A DNA stretch of 64,000 nucleotides from sequence record OK428535.1. The stretch is one strand, 5' to 3'. The DNA comes from Escherichia phage vB_EcoM_Lh1B. Positions 789-21,185 of this stretch are shown here, in pieces; position 1 is the stretch's first letter, and each line of letters starts with the position of its first letter. Made by a program: the position numbers and the translations under genes. A model generated the notes under the pieces. That model saw only the letters and a list, made by a program, of their open reading frames with translations. It ran no database searches and was not told the origin of the DNA.

Positions 789-828
789 CCCCTCTTACCT
801 TCGGGTAAGAGGGCATTGTCTTTTTTTA
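789..828 (+). terminator. Rho-independent terminator
   Basis: cctcttacc-ttcg-ggtaagagg hairpin followed by a T7 run, directly after the stop at 781-783. Confidence 0.7.
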
Positions 829-860
829 CAGATCAGAACAGTCCTATGCTTTTTGCTTCC

Positions 861-947
861 AGTCCACTAAATTTCAGATATATATTACTTAGGTGAGAGT
901 TGCTCGTAAACTCTCTAATCGACTATTAATCTAAAAGGAGTATTCTA
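861..947 (+). promoter_or_regulatory. Promoter-like element plus 5' leader, copy 1 of a near-identical repeat (second copy at 20660-20738)
   Basis: TTTCAGATATATATTACTTAGGTGAGAGTT followed by CTAATCGAC..AAGGAG directly upstream of the start at 948; about 80 nt nearly identical to the 20.7 kb copy. Promoter function is inferred. Confidence 0.5.
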
Positions 948-1313
948 ATGCGTTTTAAACATCAAACCGTTGTGTTGGCAAAGAAAGCATTTCTGGTTCG
1001 TCTCTCTTACATTATTNCTCGTGTCACTGCGAAGGATGTTACGCAGAAAGACATTGCATTGTTGGTAGGCNGNTNNCCNNCACAAANNTNTGNGNTTAAA
1101 AATGAACGCGAGAAAGCCGTGACTATCGAAACTCTGATGCGTGTTGCCGATACACTGCGCCTGAATTACGAAATCGTTTACCGTTCCATCAACGGCAAAT
1201 GCCGCCATAGCTTCAAAATTGAATCCTGCATCGACTACATGAATAACTGTCCTATCCGGGTACGAGAAACAGGACTTAAAGTCATGGCACGTAAACCTTC
1301 TGCAGTGATGTAG
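948..1313 (+). CDS. Hypothetical protein, possible helix-turn-helix DNA binder
   Basis: ORF with AAGGAG Shine-Dalgarno. The segment VTAKDVTQKDIALLVG...KNEREKAVTIETLMRVADTLRL resembles an XRE-type HTH, but Ns interrupt the presumed recognition helix. Confidence 0.4.
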   Translation: MRFKHQTVVLAKKAFLVRLSYIIXRVTAKDVTQKDIALLVGXXXXQXXXXKNEREKAVTIETLMRVADTLRLNYEIVYRSINGKCRHSFKIESCIDYMNNCPIRVRETGLKVMARKPSAVM

Positions 1314-1324
1314 GGAGCAAACGT

Positions 1325-1711
1325 ATGAATTGGTATGTGAGCGGTATCACCCGTCGTGTAATGACGGAAGAGGATGATCGATGTAAACATCTTAAAGTGG
1401 GGTCTATAGCTCCACGTTATACGGCAGAGTGCGACCCATGGGGCCGCGAAACGTATTACATGTGCGAGAACTGCTGGGAAAAANTGCNGGNNNAAATNGN
1501 NGNTGAAGAAGTGGTNTGCGNCGATTGCAAAGGTACCTTCCCGAAACGGGATACTGTTGNGNGGAAATGGCACGACTTTGACCCCAGTCAAGGGGATAAA
1601 GAACTTTGTATCTGTAATAACTGCGTGTCTTTACCGACACATTTAAACCGTGTAGAGAATGACCGTCGGGCATTTGAACACGACTTTCCAGAAGCAGCTT
1701 TCTGGGATTAA
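1325..1711 (+). CDS. Hypothetical Cys-rich protein, possible zinc ribbon
   Basis: Paired cysteines (CENCW, CxDC, CICNNC); Ns present in the middle. Confidence 0.5.
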   Translation: MNWYVSGITRRVMTEEDDRCKHLKVGSIAPRYTAECDPWGRETYYMCENCWEKXXXXXXXEEVXCXDCKGTFPKRDTVXXKWHDFDPSQGDKELCICNNCVSLPTHLNRVENDRRAFEHDFPEAAFWD

Positions 1712-2250
1712 CTAGTATAACCCTTAAGGAGTATATCATGGCGAAGGCCCCTAAAACTGTAGCAAAAGATTCAATGGCAAGCAACGCGATTAAAGCCACA
1801 AAAACGCGTACTACCGAATTTCCACGTTCACCTACCATTCCTAAACCGGATGTAATTGTACCAATCAGTGAACGTCTGAAAACGATTCACATCGAACGTG
1901 AATTTCCGATTGACCTTGGTCAGGAAATCGTTGCGGTTAATCTTGGTAGTGATGTCCGCTTTACTATCTACAAGGGATTAACTAGTGTAAACCTTAAGGA
2001 GTATATCATGGCGAAGGCCCCTAAAACTGTAGCAAAAGATTCAACGGCAAGCACCGCGACTAAATCTGCAAAAACGTCTACTACAGAATTTCCACGTTCA
2101 CCTACCATTCCCAAACCGGATGTAATTGTACCAATCAGTGAACGTCTGAAAACAATTCACATCGAGCGCGAATATCCGATTGACCTTGGTCAGGAAATCG
2201 TTGCGGTTAACCTTGGTAGCGACGTACGCTTTACCATCTATAAAGGCGCG
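1711..2250 (+). repeat. Diverged tandem direct duplication of two ~270 bp units covering the RBS, start codon and first ~80 codons of the gene at 1738
   Basis: Unit 1 (about 1711-1980) and unit 2 (about 1981-2250) both begin ACTAGT(A/G)TAA(A)CCTTAAGGAGTATATCATGGCGAAGGCCCCTAAAACTG and stay collinear with scattered mismatches. Confidence 0.85.
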
Positions 2251-7009: not shown

Positions 7010-7046
7010 CCTCCTTGCCCACGGGTAAGGAGGTCCCTTTTTATTT
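7010..7046 (+). terminator. Rho-independent terminator
   Basis: cctcctt...aaggagg hairpin followed by a T-run. A CAGTCCACTAA box follows, also seen at about 853. Confidence 0.6.
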
Positions 7047-7099
7047 ACATCAGTCCACTAACTTATGTGAAACAACCCACGTAAAGAGGAATTAAGAGA

Positions 7100-7417: not shown

Positions 7418-7709
7418 GCCCACGCTGACGCACCAGGAACTGCACGTCCGTTTTATTCGGGCGTTCACACCCCCGTTAGGTGGTGAGGTACACGATCGTT
7501 CCGTGGTTGCAGAAGTTAAAGGTATCGGCGAAGAACTAATGACACTGTCTAATATTGTGACGGGTGTTGAGTTCACGTTACCGTTAAACGTATTTCGGTT
7601 TATTCCGCGCGTAAACGAAACGCTGCTCATCGACCGTGTACATCATCGGATTATGGCGCAGGTACATCCTAGCCGTAAAGAGTATGTGCGCTTAGAGATG
7701 ATGGTCTAA
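7377..7709 (+). CDS. Hypothetical protein, start uncertain
   Basis: Downstream part of track ORF 7152-7709. In-frame ATGs at 7377 and 7395 both have an A/G-rich Shine-Dalgarno; the upstream part of the track ORF overlaps the 7100-7417 gene out of frame. Confidence 0.4.
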   Translation: MPQDSFMSNLNPIEPTLTHQELHVRFIRAFTPPLGGEVHDRSVVAEVKGIGEELMTLSNIVTGVEFTLPLNVFRFIPRVNETLLIDRVHHRIMAQVHPSRKEYVRLEMMV

Positions 7710-7717
7710 CGCACGAC

Positions 7718-7752
7718 TTTTCAGATAGATGTTATTTTACTGAACCTAACTG
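7718..7752 (+). promoter_or_regulatory. Promoter-like motif TTTCAGATAGATGTTAT..TGAACCT (variant 2)
   Basis: Same core as the 861 and 20660 elements; a near-identical variant sits at 16118-16150. Lies about 50 nt upstream of the start at 7772. Confidence 0.45.
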
Positions 7753-7771: not shown

Positions 7772-8077
7772 ATGGCTAAACAATACACAATTGTCAAACG
7801 TGCAGGTACGACTCTGCTGTACGTGGAGAAAGGTTGTGAGAACACTGCAACCGCCAAGAAACTGAATCTGCAAGGGTTTCTGTATCAAGGTCTCCGCGCG
7901 GGTTTGACCATCACTTTTAAAGGCTTACCACAGGCGAAGAATCTGCGCGTCGTACGTGCAGACGGTGTAGAGCGTGCCTTGGTAGCCGACACCCCGGTTG
8001 ATACTATCCCTGCCACTAAGAAGGCAGCGAAAGCAACCAAGAAAGTCGTCGATAAACGCAAACGCGTTGTCGCTTAA
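7772..8077 (+). CDS. Hypothetical protein with a basic C-terminal tail
   Basis: Ends KKAAKATKKVVDKRKRVVA; a nucleic-acid-binding role is a guess. Confidence 0.6.
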   Translation: MAKQYTIVKRAGTTLLYVEKGCENTATAKKLNLQGFLYQGLRAGLTITFKGLPQAKNLRVVRADGVERALVADTPVDTIPATKKAAKATKKVVDKRKRVVA

Positions 8078-16077: not shown

Positions 16078-16121
16078 TACCAGCTATCCTTCGGGGTGGC
16101 TGGTACGCTTTATTTTATTTC
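16078..16121 (+). terminator. Rho-independent terminator
   Basis: accagc...gctggt hairpin followed by a T-rich run. Confidence 0.6.
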
Positions 16122-16150
16122 AGATAGATGTTATCTCAGTGAACCTCTGA
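16118..16150 (+). promoter_or_regulatory. Promoter-like motif TTTCAGATAGATGTTATCTCAGTGAACCT (variant 2)
   Basis: Near-identical to the element at 7718-7752; precedes the start at 16200. Confidence 0.45.
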
Positions 16151-16199
16151 AATTTACGTTTCAATCAGAGCTTATGTCATGTATTAAGGAGCACTTAAA

Positions 16200-16532
16200 A
16201 TGTCTAAAGTCTATCACATTGCGGTATTGCGTCAGGCAACTGACCTTGAAGGCGACGGTGAACTTCGAATGCAGGAAGCCATTCTGAGCACTGTTAAAGA
16301 ACTTAACCAAGCAAACAATTTCGATGCACGATTCGAAGCGCTGCCTGTAAGCCGTGGTGCTTTCTACGGCAGTCAAATACTGGCAACCCAGTATGCGATG
16401 GCTTTAAGTGAATTGCGCAATAACCCTAGCCCAGAGACCGCAGCGAAGATGAACAAGCTGTCGCTATGGATGAATAACCTGGATGTCCCCGCAGCATCCA
16501 CTGTAAGTGGTTTGGGGGTGGTCAATGAGTAG
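16200..16532 (+). CDS. Hypothetical protein
   Basis: 110-aa ORF with AAGGAG upstream. Confidence 0.6.
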   Translation: MSKVYHIAVLRQATDLEGDGELRMQEAILSTVKELNQANNFDARFEALPVSRGAFYGSQILATQYAMALSELRNNPSPETAAKMNKLSLWMNNLDVPAASTVSGLGVVNE

Positions 16533-18143: not shown

Positions 18144-18569
18144 ATGTTAACCATAGACGTAGCTATCTCTATCGAGCTTCAACGCATCGGTGTAGGTACA
18201 CTAAAACTTCGTTATCGTGATTTACCGCATTACAACAAGATGTTTGATGTTGGGGTGATAAAGTTTTATAACCGGTACGGGCCAAGAGAACTGTGTCTAT
18301 GGTTTGTTGAGTTAGCGATAACCTACGGCGAGTTTTATCATCCTAACATACCGCATGTCAGACACGTGTCAAGNGGGCACCTGGAAACTTCCAGAGAGTT
18401 CTGTCAGCGATTGTATAGCGCGATGGAGGAGTCCGCACCCATCGACTTTGACGTACCACCTGAACCGTTATTAATCGACCATGAAGGAGAAGCCGATGTC
18501 TATTTCATTACAGGGATTGACCATTCACGAGATTCAGAAATATTTACTCGAGGGCGGGAAACTGACTGA
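18144..18569 (+). CDS. Hypothetical protein
   Basis: ATG at 18144; the track start is a TTG at 18138. Confidence 0.5.
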   Translation: MLTIDVAISIELQRIGVGTLKLRYRDLPHYNKMFDVGVIKFYNRYGPRELCLWFVELAITYGEFYHPNIPHVRHVSXGHLETSREFCQRLYSAMEESAPIDFDVPPEPLLIDHEGEADVYFITGIDHSRDSEIFTRGRETD

Positions 18570-20602: not shown

Positions 20603-20641
20603 GCACCCTACTCCCGAAGGAGTAGGGTTTCTTCTTTTTTG
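20603..20641 (+). terminator. Rho-independent terminator
   Basis: caccctactcc-cgaa-ggagtagggt hairpin followed by a T-run. Confidence 0.75.
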
Positions 20642-20659
20642 TCTAGTGTGATTACAATT

Positions 20660-20738
20660 ATTTTCAGATATATATTACTTAGGTGAGAGTTAACCATTAA
20701 CTCTTATCTAATCGACCATTATCTTAAGGAGTTTTAAC
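20660..20738 (+). promoter_or_regulatory. Promoter-like element plus 5' leader, copy 2 of the repeat at 861-947
   Basis: Identical TTTCAGATATATATTACTTAGGTGAGAGTT core and similar leader ending in AAGGAG, directly upstream of the start at 20739. Confidence 0.5.
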
Positions 20739-21185
20739 ATGTACATTCTGAATAACGAACTTACTAAGTACGCTAGCAAAAACCCGANTATGATTTNTTT
20801 NCTAATCGTGATGGCGGCCAACAAACAAGACCCTAGCGAATTCACTACTGAGGTCTTCGAAGAGATTATCGCTAACGCCAAAGAAGCCACGTTCCAGACC
20901 ACAGNGCCTACTCGCGACGAGTTCCCCCTAGGTGAAGCCGGCGATGTAATGTTTAACGACATGGTTGCTTCGTACTACATCAATAGACGTGGTATGGAAA
21001 TCGAATACGATGAACTTCCTACTAGCAGCTTTGCTGAAATGATTCGTGATTATCGTCGTCAAGTTGTCTCTGACGATATCGTAAAGAAATACATGGCACA
21101 AATCAGCCCATTCAGTCTTGAATTCGAAAACCGCGCGGTTGCCTTAGCAACACATCGCCTGCGTTTAGAAAAAGAAGTACACTAA
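20739..21185 (+). CDS. Hypothetical protein
   Basis: 148-aa ORF downstream of the repeated promoter-like element; Ns near the 5' end. Confidence 0.55.
   Translation: MYILNNELTKYASKNPXMIXXLIVMAANKQDPSEFTTEVFEEIIANAKEATFQTTXPTRDEFPLGEAGDVMFNDMVASYYINRRGMEIEYDELPTSSFAEMIRDYRRQVVSDDIVKKYMAQISPFSLEFENRAVALATHRLRLEKEVH

What the first reader, a model, noticed from the sequence alone, without database searches (positions are those of the whole stretch)
861..947. Near-identical ~80-nt promoter/leader duplicated 20 kb apart, plus a related motif at two further sites
TTTCAGATATATATTACTTAGGTGAGAGTT followed by CTAATCGAC..AAGGAG occurs at 861-947 and 20660-20738, each right after a terminator and right before a gene. 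A variant (TTTCAGATAGATGTTAT..TGAACCT) occurs at 7718-7752 and 16118-16150. The shared core TTTCAGATAKATRTTA looks like a phage-specific promoter class, and the conserved leader could be a shared RNA regulatory or translation-initiation element.
Basis: seen in the sequence. Interest (0 to 1): 0.5.

Follow-up and report, generated by a model that had tools for sequence, protein, structure and literature searches.

The report
Jumbo-phage early promoters with structured leader
The repeated motif is the early promoter that this SPN3US-like giant phage's own injected RNA polymerase most likely uses, a known kind of element; the two near-identical copies also carry a conserved leader with a 5' hairpin and a short invariant box whose role is unproven.

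Summary
TTTCAGATAKATRTTA occurs four times in the window against 0.1 expected. Copies at 872 and 20662 share an exact 30-nt run and are 75% identical over about 90 nt.

The window is an SPN3US-like jumbo phage, about 97% identical to Escherichia phage EC001. The motif matches published early-promoter consensi of phiKZ-related phages. In the complete EC001 genome the family has 26 members, all read by eye as intergenic and co-oriented with the next gene. One operon they head contains a non-virion RNA polymerase gene. The promoter reading is therefore supported, and it is a new member of a known kind.

The two near-identical copies belong to a six-member subclass with a composite leader:
- A hairpin starts at the inferred transcription start. 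Its stem sequence changes between copies and between orthologues, but pairing is kept.
- An unstructured box, TCGACYATTAAYC, is invariant in six orthologues.
- A strong ribosome-binding site follows.

I infer that the hairpin stabilises early mRNA, as in the T7 gene 10 leader. The function of the box is unresolved. No transcription start has been mapped in this phage group.

The parts
790..827 (+). Intrinsic terminator ending the upstream thymidylate kinase unit: stem-loop 790-813 followed by a T-run.
   Evidence: sequence. Conserved in orthologous regions.
849..895 (+). Early-promoter copy 1, class 1. It has an A-rich upstream part, TTTCAGA at 872-878, the -10-like element TATATTAC at 881-888, then TTAGG and TG. 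The inferred start is G895 (+/-2).
   Evidence: nhmmer E=1e-7. Match to the published consensus. The start position is inferred from 'AT-rich element centred at about -10' (PMC7598289) and from the identical TATATTAC-N5-TG spacing in phiKZ.
895..915 (+). 5'-terminal hairpin of the predicted transcript: GAGAGTT (895-901), loop GCTCGTA (902-908), AACTCTC (909-915).
   Evidence: MFE hairpin, kept in the centroid. Covariation.
917..931 (+). Conserved single-stranded box AATCGACTATTAATC.
   Evidence: 4 hits against 0.29 expected in the window. (13 in EC001, all + strand). (invariant in 6 orthologues). Unpaired.
935..950 (+). Shine-Dalgarno AAGGAG (935-940) and start codon (948-950) of the Cro/C1-type HTH gene at 948-1313.
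7696..7742 (+). Early-promoter variant, class 2: TTTCAGATAGATGTTAT at 7719-7735, inferred start G7742. The leader is short (about 30 nt) with no 5' hairpin and no box. The gene is 7772-8077.
   Evidence: (E=2e-6).
16078..16105 (+). Intrinsic terminator ending the tail-associated-protein gene, directly before the next promoter.
16095..16141 (+). Early-promoter variant, class 2: TTTCAGATAGATGTTAT at 16118-16134, inferred start G16141. The leader is about 59 nt, with only a weak hairpin (6 bp, 14-nt loop) starting at +6. The gene is 16200-16532.
   Evidence: (E=3e-7).
20605..20640 (+). Intrinsic terminator: stem-loop 20605-20628 followed by a T-run.
20639..20685 (+). Early-promoter copy 2, class 1: TTTCAGA at 20662-20668, TATATTAC at 20671-20678, inferred start G20685.
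   Evidence: E=2e-6.
20685..20705 (+). 5'-terminal hairpin: GAGAGTTAA, loop CCA, TTAACTCTT. Nine pairs including one G-U.
   Evidence: -8.4 kcal/mol, kept in the centroid.
20710..20723 (+). Conserved box AATCGACCATTATC.
20725..20741 (+). Shine-Dalgarno TAAGGAG (20725-20731) and start codon (20739-20741) of the gene at 20739-21185, of unknown function.

Best explanation
The four sites are early promoters of an SPN3US-like, phiKZ-related jumbo phage. I infer that they are read by the multisubunit RNA polymerase that is packaged in the virion and injected with the DNA.

Recognition rests on an AT-rich -10-like element (TATATTAC, or GATGTTAT/GATATTAT in other family members). This is preceded by TTTCAGA and an A-rich stretch, and followed five bases later by TG. 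Transcription is inferred to start at that G: 895, 7742, 16141 and 20685.

The two near-identical copies belong to a six-member subclass in this genome type. In this subclass the first 21 or so nucleotides of the transcript fold into a hairpin. A single-stranded box TCGACYATTAAYC, a consensus Shine-Dalgarno site and the start codon follow.

The hairpin most likely shields the 5' end of these first-wave mRNAs from 5'-end-dependent decay, as the T7 gene 10 and ompA leaders do. The box is most likely a recognition site near the ribosome-binding site for a regulator or enhancer of translation; this is the least certain step.

Shown here: the motif, its family, its context, the structural covariation and the conservation of the box. 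Inferred: the polymerase, the start site and the functions of the hairpin and box.
For: 1. Identity of the phage. The window is about 95-97% identical to Seoulvirus genomes. Against EC001 it has 1865 non-N mismatches in 64 kb.

2. Match to published promoters. PMC7058600 Table 2 lists the predicted early promoters N1M2 TBYAWWWWWTTTCARRYAKATATTATYWAAGTGWA, OBP, 201phi2-1 ...TATATTACDWHDGTG and phiKZ TATATTAC. By my own count, copy 1 fits the N1M2 string at about 27 of 30 positions. In phiKZ itself, TATATTAC-N5-TG has the same spacing.

3. A review states that every RNAP-encoding jumbo phage has such a motif upstream of early operons, centred at about -10, and that the motif proved to be the early promoter wherever it was tested (PMC7598289). 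The 201phi2-1 TSS data place the AT-rich motif about 10 bp upstream of the start.

4. Family. An iterated nhmmer search finds 26 sites in EC001, 24 of them on the + strand. By eye, all lie in intergenic DNA ahead of a co-oriented gene. Only the four sites in question are found in the window.

5. Early-gene context. The first genes downstream are one HTH protein and otherwise proteins of unknown function. EC001 MGA_25 is the orthologue of phiKZ gp55 (E=2e-41), which is a non-virion RNAP subunit. MGA_25 lies in an operon headed by two family members.

6. Not a host promoter. No sigma-70-like match lies at the + strand sites, and such matches are not enriched (18 against 27.7 expected).

7. Hairpin.
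- 33 of 43 distinct class-1 leaders from about 14 jumbo genomes have a hairpin that starts within the first 4 nt and has dG <= -4, against 8% of shuffles.
- Several pair types occur at each stem position, and 34 of 299 pairs are G-U. Mean MFE is -6.0 on the sense strand and -4.6 on the antisense strand.
- Swapping 3' halves between leaders raises the mean MFE from -5.75 to -3.22 +/- 0.31, and 0 of 300 swaps reach the observed value.
- Orthologues show AGAGTT/AACTCT, AGCATT/AATGCT and AGATTA/TAATCT.

8. Box. It occurs 4 times in the window against 0.29 expected. EC001 has 13 copies, all on the + strand, and 8 of them lie 28-31 nt before a start codon. It is invariant in six orthologues from two genera while the loop and linker vary, and it is unpaired in the folds.
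Against: - No transcription start has been mapped in any SPN3US-like phage that I could find, so the polymerase and the start site are inferred by homology.
- Ten of 43 class-1 leaders, and 12 of the 20 other family members in EC001, lack a convincing 5' hairpin. The hairpin is therefore not needed for promoter function, and its benefit is untested.
- In the first 50 kb of phiKZ, by my eye, only about 3 of 8 early promoters are followed by an obvious hairpin, so the feature is not general.
- The box also occurs without an early promoter, in mid-operon positions and directly after a strong terminator. This fits a promoter or DNA operator as well as an RNA site.
- The box shows no complementarity to 16S rRNA beyond chance.
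- Whole-leader folding energies are not unusual (z from -0.2 to -2).
Confidence: 0.75

Rival explanations
1. The box is a second promoter for the non-virion RNA polymerase, placed in tandem behind the early promoter. The genes would then be transcribed early and also later, and the hairpin would simply lie between the two promoters.
For: - Tandem early plus middle or late promoters are documented for AR9 continuously expressed genes and for phiKZ gene 54.
- The box is strictly strand-specific, and invariant like a polymerase recognition site.
- In EC001 the single gene MGA_211 lies between two strong terminators, with only the box and the SD upstream.
- Two loci have promoter, hairpin, terminator, box, gene in that order.
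Against: - The box lacks the phiKZ-type signatures: TATG at the start, or TAC(T) at about -22. Elements with those signatures are visible separately in the same genome.
- In related Erwinia phages GACYATC abuts AAGGAG directly. A start 7-10 nt downstream of the box would therefore fall inside or after the SD.
- No box lies before any of the minus-strand structural genes.
Confidence: 0.15
2. The conserved DNA is an operator set for the Cro/C1-type HTH protein encoded right after copy 1. That protein would bind the box, or the partly palindromic promoter core, to repress or time a regulon of early genes.
For: - The gene at 948-1313 is an HTH_3 / XRE-type protein.
- The same promoter-leader-HTH arrangement is kept in six phages of two genera.
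- The box contains TAATC ... TAATC 11 bp apart (sequence). The general family core AGATAGATATTATCT is nearly palindromic and works in both directions at two EC001 sites.
Against: - The hairpin arms vary in sequence while pairing is kept, with G-U pairs favouring the sense RNA. The inverted repeat is therefore not a fixed protein site.
- The box is a direct repeat at best, not the inverted repeat usual for XRE dimers.
- Boxes also sit in mid-operon positions without any promoter.
- Binding was not tested.
Confidence: 0.15
3. The long similarity of the two copies reflects recent duplication or gene conversion of a mobile promoter cassette, like the promoter-early-stem-loop cassettes of T4-type phages. 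The leader itself would have no function.
For: The two copies share an exact 30-nt run and the same order of parts. Each genome has about six such cassettes in front of unrelated small genes of unknown function.
Against: - The 20-mer GATATATATTACYTAGGTGA is exact at 45 places in about 14 genomes of different genera, while the flanks differ.
- Stems change by compensatory pairs instead of being copied.
- The box is invariant in orthologues whose loops and linkers have diverged.
- These patterns indicate selection rather than recent copying.
Confidence: 0.1
4. The hairpin is a DNA structure that forms part of the promoter, as in coliphage N4, whose virion polymerase recognises an extruded DNA hairpin.
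For: A virion polymerase is involved, and an inverted repeat lies next to the conserved promoter sequence.
Against: - The repeat lies downstream of the inferred start, not upstream.
- 12 of 26 family members lack it.
- G-U pairs make the sense strand fold better than the antisense strand.
- From my own knowledge, the N4 enzyme is a single-subunit polymerase unrelated to the split beta/beta' enzymes annotated here.
Confidence: 0.03

Closest known systems
Early (virion-RNAP) promoters of phiKZ-related jumbo phages: phiKZ TATATTAC, 201phi2-1, and OBP / N1M2 TTTCARRYAKATATTATYWAAGTGWA
   Same: - The same core, the same TTTCA upstream element and the same spacing to a downstream (G)TG.
- Intergenic and co-oriented with operons of unknown-function genes and non-virion polymerase genes.
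- The genome encodes split beta/beta' polymerase sets.
   Different: - In this phage group the promoters have only been predicted, never mapped.
- The family here splits into TATATATTAC, GATGTTAT and GATATTAT variants.
- The class-1 variant carries a fixed initial transcribed sequence (GTGAG) and a structured leader. I found no description of this for phiKZ or 201phi2-1 in the papers I could read.
T7 phi10 promoter plus gene 10 leader (the pET expression cassette), and the 5' stem-loops of ompA and papA mRNAs
   Same: The order of parts is the same: phage-polymerase promoter, purine-rich start, 5'-terminal stem-loop, unstructured A/U-rich spacer carrying a short conserved element, strong SD, then AUG. 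The role of 5'-terminal base pairing against RNase E / RppH-dependent decay is established (references in PMC3997798; the T7 leader is from my own knowledge).
   Different: - The polymerase and the sequence are unrelated.
- The box has no rRNA complementarity, unlike the T7 epsilon enhancer.
- Stabilisation has not been tested here.
T4 RegA-type translational operators on early mRNAs
   Same: A short single-stranded sequence shared by a subset of early messages and placed at the ribosome-binding region. Such a site could allow coordinated shut-off. This is an analogy from my own knowledge.
   Different: No RegA homologue was sought or found. The box lies upstream of the SD, not over the AUG. 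Binding has not been tested.
Premature termination in 5' UTRs that yields short RNAs in phiKZ and 201phi2-1
   Same: Two sister cassettes in EC001, outside the window, have promoter, hairpin, intrinsic terminator, box, gene in that order. This resembles the conditional terminators reported in PMC10914365 and PMC11512511.
   Different: The two copies in the window have no terminator in the leader.

Membership tests
phiKZ-like (Chimalliviridae) early / virion-RNAP promoter | Highly conserved AT-rich element of about 10 nt of the TATATTAC type. | tested here: met
   TATATTAC at 881-888 and 20671-20678; GATGTTAT at 7728-7735 and 16127-16134. The consensus is from PMC7058600 and PMC7598289.
phiKZ-like (Chimalliviridae) early / virion-RNAP promoter | Extended match to the consensus of relatives, including the upstream TTTCA / A-rich part and the downstream GTG. 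| tested here: met
   My comparison of copy 1 with the N1M2 string gives about 27 of 30 positions. phiKZ sites show the same TATATTAC-N5-TG spacing.
phiKZ-like (Chimalliviridae) early / virion-RNAP promoter | Many copies per genome, intergenic, co-oriented with early operons that include non-virion RNAP genes. | tested here: met
   26 sites in EC001, read by eye as all preceding a co-oriented gene. The gp55 orthologue MGA_25 lies in an operon headed by two of them.
phiKZ-like (Chimalliviridae) early / virion-RNAP promoter | The phage encodes virion and non-virion multisubunit RNA polymerases. | tested here: met
   Several split beta/beta'-like genes are annotated in the near-identical genome EC001. 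The SPN3US virion RNAP is described in PMC5694885. None of these genes lies inside the window.
phiKZ-like (Chimalliviridae) early / virion-RNAP promoter | Primary 5' ends about 10 nt downstream; transcription independent of host RNAP and of new protein synthesis. | not testable with these tools
   No transcript data for Seoulvirus were found.
Bacterial sigma-70 promoter | TTGACA-like and TATAAT-like hexamers 16-18 bp apart. | tested here: not met
   No + strand match at any of the four sites. Matches are not enriched: 18 against 27.7 expected.
N4-type virion-polymerase hairpin promoter | A DNA hairpin upstream of the start that is required for recognition. | tested here: not met
   The hairpin lies at or after the inferred start, is absent from 12 of 26 family members, and G-U pairs favour the sense RNA.
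Any curated RNA family (Rfam 15) | A covariance-model match to the leader. | tested here: not met
   No match in 1-24000 at E <= 1 except one chance snoRNA hit elsewhere.
phiKZ-type middle or late (non-virion RNAP) promoter, considered for the box | TATG at the start (late) or TAC(T) centred at about -22 (middle). | tested here: not met
   The box reads CGACYATTA and has neither signature.

The most novel reading that the evidence does not exclude
The class-1 leader is a dedicated post-transcriptional address label for the first wave of mRNAs of nucleus-forming jumbo phages. Its parts are the fixed GUGAG start, the covarying 5' hairpin and the invariant single-stranded TCGACYATTAAYC box. A phage protein would read it, for example to move these transcripts out of the early infection vesicle, to load them on ribosomes preferentially, or to switch them off together later.
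Probability: 0.12. Interest if true: 0.7.

Novelty: new member of a known kind. Interest (0 to 1): 0.3.

Why it matters
The promoter gives a ready list of candidate immediate-early transcription units for SPN3US-like phages, which are used as genetic models and therapy candidates. It also sets start-site predictions that can be tested to within a base or two.

The leader would matter more if it proves functional. It is a compact, conserved cassette of strong phage promoter, stabilising hairpin, box and consensus ribosome-binding site. Such a cassette could be used for expression during jumbo-phage infection. It may also point to unrecognised control of early mRNA in phages that separate transcription from translation.

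Tried and rejected
- **Covariance model of promoter plus hairpin.** MAFFT and cmsearch kept the sequences ungapped, so the 3' arms were out of register and pair counts would have been meaningless. I used fold-based tests and a half-swap permutation instead.
- **IMG/VR scan with the OBP/N1M2 consensus.** Only 5 hits, too few to test the hairpin in that clade.
- **IMG/VR scan for box plus AGGA.** The pattern was too loose and the result is uninformative.
- **Supplementary TSS tables of the phiKZ and 201phi2-1 papers.** None is held, so the exact offset of the start from TATATTAC rests on the papers' text.
- **Box complementarity to E. coli 16S rRNA.** 7-8 Watson-Crick pairs against a null mean of 6.9. 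Rejected.
- **Rfam.** Nothing.
- **phiKZ, first 50 kb only.** The promoter spacing is confirmed. 5' hairpins are not general there, and I judged this by eye on 8 sites.
- **A possible middle-promoter pattern, TTTAC-N13-18-YATGY.** 7 hits against 4.15 expected, not significant.
- **E. coli genomes.** Chromosomal hits were only chance-level.

Full report
**1. The observation**

TTTCAGATAKATRTTA, with up to two mismatches allowed, gives exactly four hits in 64 kb, all on the + strand. Shuffles give 0.10 on average, and none of 100 reaches four. An independent repeat search recovers both families.

The two long copies are less alike than 'near-identical ~80 nt' implies. They share an exact 30-nt run (872-901 = 20662-20691) and 70 of 93 aligned columns from the promoter to the start codon. 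The two variants share 17 exact bases and little else.

Three of the four sites follow an intrinsic terminator, at 790-813, 16078-16105 and 20605-20628. The 7719 site instead starts ten bases after a stop codon. All four precede a gene.

**2. What the window is**

The window is 94-97% identical to Seoulvirus genomes: SPN3US and its relatives from Salmonella, Escherichia, Proteus and Erwinia. It corresponds to positions 96001-160000 of Escherichia phage vB_EcoM_EC001, with 1865 non-N differences and 259 N.

These are phiKZ-related jumbo phages with split beta/beta' RNA polymerase genes and a virion-packaged polymerase (PMC5694885). I fetched the whole EC001 genome so that the motif could be scanned genome-wide.

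**3. What the motif is**

A paper on Klebsiella jumbo phage N1M2 tabulates the predicted early promoters of this phage group (PMC7058600):
- N1M2: TBYAWWWWWTTTCARRYAKATATTATYWAAGTGWA
- OBP: nearly the same
- 201phi2-1: ...TTTRARR_BTATATTACDWHDGTG
- phiKZ: TATATTAC

Copy 1 reads AAATTTCAGATATATATTACTTAGGTGAG. By my count it fits the N1M2 string at about 27 of 30 positions and contains the phiKZ octamer exactly. The variants (TTTCAGATAGATGTTATCTCAGTGAA) fit almost as well. In the first 50 kb of phiKZ itself, the early promoters show the same TATATTAC-N5-TG spacing.

The literature supports the assignment:
- A review states that every RNAP-encoding jumbo phage has such a motif upstream of early operons.
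- The motif is an AT-rich stretch of about 10 nt centred near -10.
- It proved to be the early promoter wherever transcripts were mapped (PMC7598289).
- The 201phi2-1 long-read data place it about 10 bp upstream of the start.

On that basis I infer starts at G895, G7742, G16141 and G20685, give or take two bases.

**4. The family**

An nhmmer profile seeded with ten sites and iterated on EC001 converges on 26 sites with consensus aAAa..TTtCAGATAGATATTATCTnaGTGA. Twenty-four are on the + strand, and by eye all sit ahead of a co-oriented gene.

At two places the nearly palindromic core serves divergent genes in both directions. Only the four sites of the finding are present in the window, because the rest of the window is mostly structural genes.

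Several observations fit an early promoter:
- The first genes downstream are a Cro/C1-type HTH protein and otherwise proteins of unknown function, as reported for early promoters of 201phi2-1.
- EC001 MGA_25 is the orthologue of phiKZ gp55 (E = 2e-41). gp55 is a subunit of the purified non-virion polymerase (PMC4666361). MGA_25 lies in an operon headed by two family members.
- Sigma-70-like matches are absent from the + strand at the four sites and are not enriched (18 against 27.7 expected).

The promoter reading is therefore well supported. The element is a further member of a known class.

**5. The leader of the two long copies: the hairpin**

The string AGATATATATTACYTAGGTGA occurs six times in EC001. 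Each occurrence is followed by an inverted repeat whose sequence differs between copies, for example GAGAGTT/AACTCTC, GATAGA/TCTATC, AGATT/AATCT and AGCGTTA/TAACGCT.

An exact scan of IMG/VR for the 20-mer found 45 sites in about 14 jumbo-phage genomes of several genera, giving 43 distinct leaders. The tests on these leaders gave the following:
- Thirty-three of the 43 fold into a hairpin that begins within the first four nucleotides after the T of GTG and has dG of -4 kcal/mol or better. Only 8% of shuffled versions do.
- Each stem position shows several pair types, and 34 of 299 pairs are G-U.
- The sense strand folds better than the antisense strand (-6.0 against -4.6), which points to RNA rather than DNA.
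- After collapsing near-identical leaders to 33, swapping the 3' halves between leaders raises the mean energy from -5.75 to -3.22 +/- 0.31. None of 300 swaps reaches the real value. Each 3' arm is therefore matched to its own 5' arm.
- In the orthologous tmk-to-HTH spacer of six phages from two genera, the stem changes by compensating pairs (AGAGTT/AACTCT, AGCATT/AATGCT, AGATTA/TAATCT) while the loop drifts.

The hairpin is thus a selected structure at the very 5' end of the inferred transcript: 895-915 and 20685-20705 in the window.

It is not a general property of the promoter family. All six class-1 sites in EC001 have it, but only 8 of the 20 other members do, and several of those have leaders of about 20 nt. 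The variant at 7719 has none, and the variant at 16118 has only a weak one.

**6. The leader of the two long copies: the box**

After the hairpin comes AATCGACYATTAAYC, predicted to be unpaired.
- AATCGACYAT occurs four times in the window against 0.29 expected.
- It occurs 13 times in EC001, all on the + strand, and eight of these lie 28-31 nt before a start codon.
- TCGACTATTAA is invariant in the six orthologues, although the loop and linker vary.
- In Erwinia phages a shorter form, GACYATC, abuts the AAGGAG directly.
- About half of the class-1 leaders have it (26 of 49).

The box also occurs without an early promoter. It is found between genes within an operon and, in EC001, directly after a strong terminator in front of a gene that is itself followed by a terminator.

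It has no complementarity to 16S rRNA beyond chance and no Rfam match.

**7. How it most likely works**

*Inferred by homology.* The injected virion polymerase binds the AT-rich element and its TTTCAGA / A-rich upstream part, and starts at the G of the conserved TG.

*Shown as structure, inferred as function.* In the class-1 units the nascent RNA immediately forms a hairpin of 7-9 bp with no more than one or two unpaired 5' nucleotides. In E. coli such 5'-terminal base pairing protects messages from RppH / RNase E-dependent decay (references collected in PMC3997798). From my own knowledge, the T7 phi10 / gene 10 leader has the same order of parts.

*Shown.* The rest of the leader is unstructured and A/U-rich, with a consensus SD, which suits efficient initiation.

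*Least certain.* My preferred reading of the box is a single-stranded recognition site near the ribosome-binding site, for a translational regulator or enhancer, by analogy with T4 RegA operators. I give this only about one chance in three. A DNA operator for the adjacent HTH protein and a second promoter remain open.

The second-promoter idea is weakened for two reasons. Elements with phiKZ-type middle or late signatures (TAC near -22, TATG at the start) are visible separately. In the Erwinia phages, a start downstream of the box would fall in or after the SD.

**8. Comparison with what is known, and novelty**

The promoter meets every defining feature of the phiKZ-type early promoter that can be tested by sequence. 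The one feature that cannot be tested here is the mapped, host-independent start.

I found no transcript mapping for any Seoulvirus or Erskinevirus phage. I also found no description of the hairpin-plus-box leader in the papers I could read, although the library does not hold the 2014 phiKZ paper or the 2016 AR9 genome paper, which predicted motifs across the group.

I therefore class the finding as a new member of a known kind, with an apparently undescribed but modest leader architecture. Interest is low to moderate. The promoter would not surprise a specialist. The covarying 5' hairpin and the invariant box are the only parts worth an experiment.

Noticed in passing
window 1704-2243: A 270-nt unit is repeated in tandem at 92% identity. 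Each copy carries its own TTAAGGAGTAT ribosome-binding site, and both lie in and just before the ORF at 1738-2664. This looks like a recent in-frame internal duplication of 90 codons.
   Followed up: no
window 825-849, 7044-7068, 16153-16177, also about 97-125 and 2703-2730: After several terminators there is TTTAC(R), then 13-18 nt, then YATGT(T)GTGA. This resembles the phiKZ middle promoter (TAC(T) centred at -22, PMC8244752) combined with the TATG start. One such element lies just upstream of early-promoter copy 1, and one lies inside the leader of the 16118 variant, which suggests tandem promoters as at phiKZ gene 54. As a bare pattern it is not significant: 7 hits against 4.15 expected.
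   Followed up: partly
window about 40890-41040 and 61470-61560 (EC001 136890-137040 and 157470-157560): Divergent spacers in front of structural genes carry (T/C)AGTATGA on both strands, matching the phiKZ late-promoter core TATG. The same motif is seen before other late genes of EC001. It was read by eye only, with no statistics.
   Followed up: no
window 18473-18482: A copy of the box, AATCGACCAT, lies inside a coding region, directly followed by GAAGGAG and the start of the overlapping next gene (ATG at about 18496). This is a box that is kept even though it must also encode protein.
   Followed up: no
EC001 (L004) 36258-36360 and 38085-38200, outside the window: Two sister cassettes have early promoter, 5' hairpin, strong intrinsic terminator, box and gene in that order. 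They would give a short RNA of 55-80 nt unless the terminator is read through, like the 5'-UTR-derived short RNAs reported for phiKZ and 201phi2-1.
   Followed up: partly
EC001 (L002) 16625/16697 and (L005) 13134/13206, outside the window: The nearly palindromic core AGATWGATATTATCT scores as an early promoter on both strands at two divergent spacers. These are probably bidirectional early promoters.
   Followed up: no
L177 (NZ_CP173450.1, 166883-171956): A 221,873-bp circular 'plasmid' in the RefSeq assembly of a human urine E. coli isolate is really a jumbo-phage genome. It encodes an S80-family prohead protease, and the 87-nt query matches it at four places. The one place I read (L177 2430-2600) has the same terminator, promoter, hairpin, box and SD cassette.
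   Followed up: partly
window 1017-1095 and scattered elsewhere: The window contains 259 N, in patches that interrupt the HTH gene after copy 1. I used the EC001 sequence for the protein searches.
   Followed up: yes
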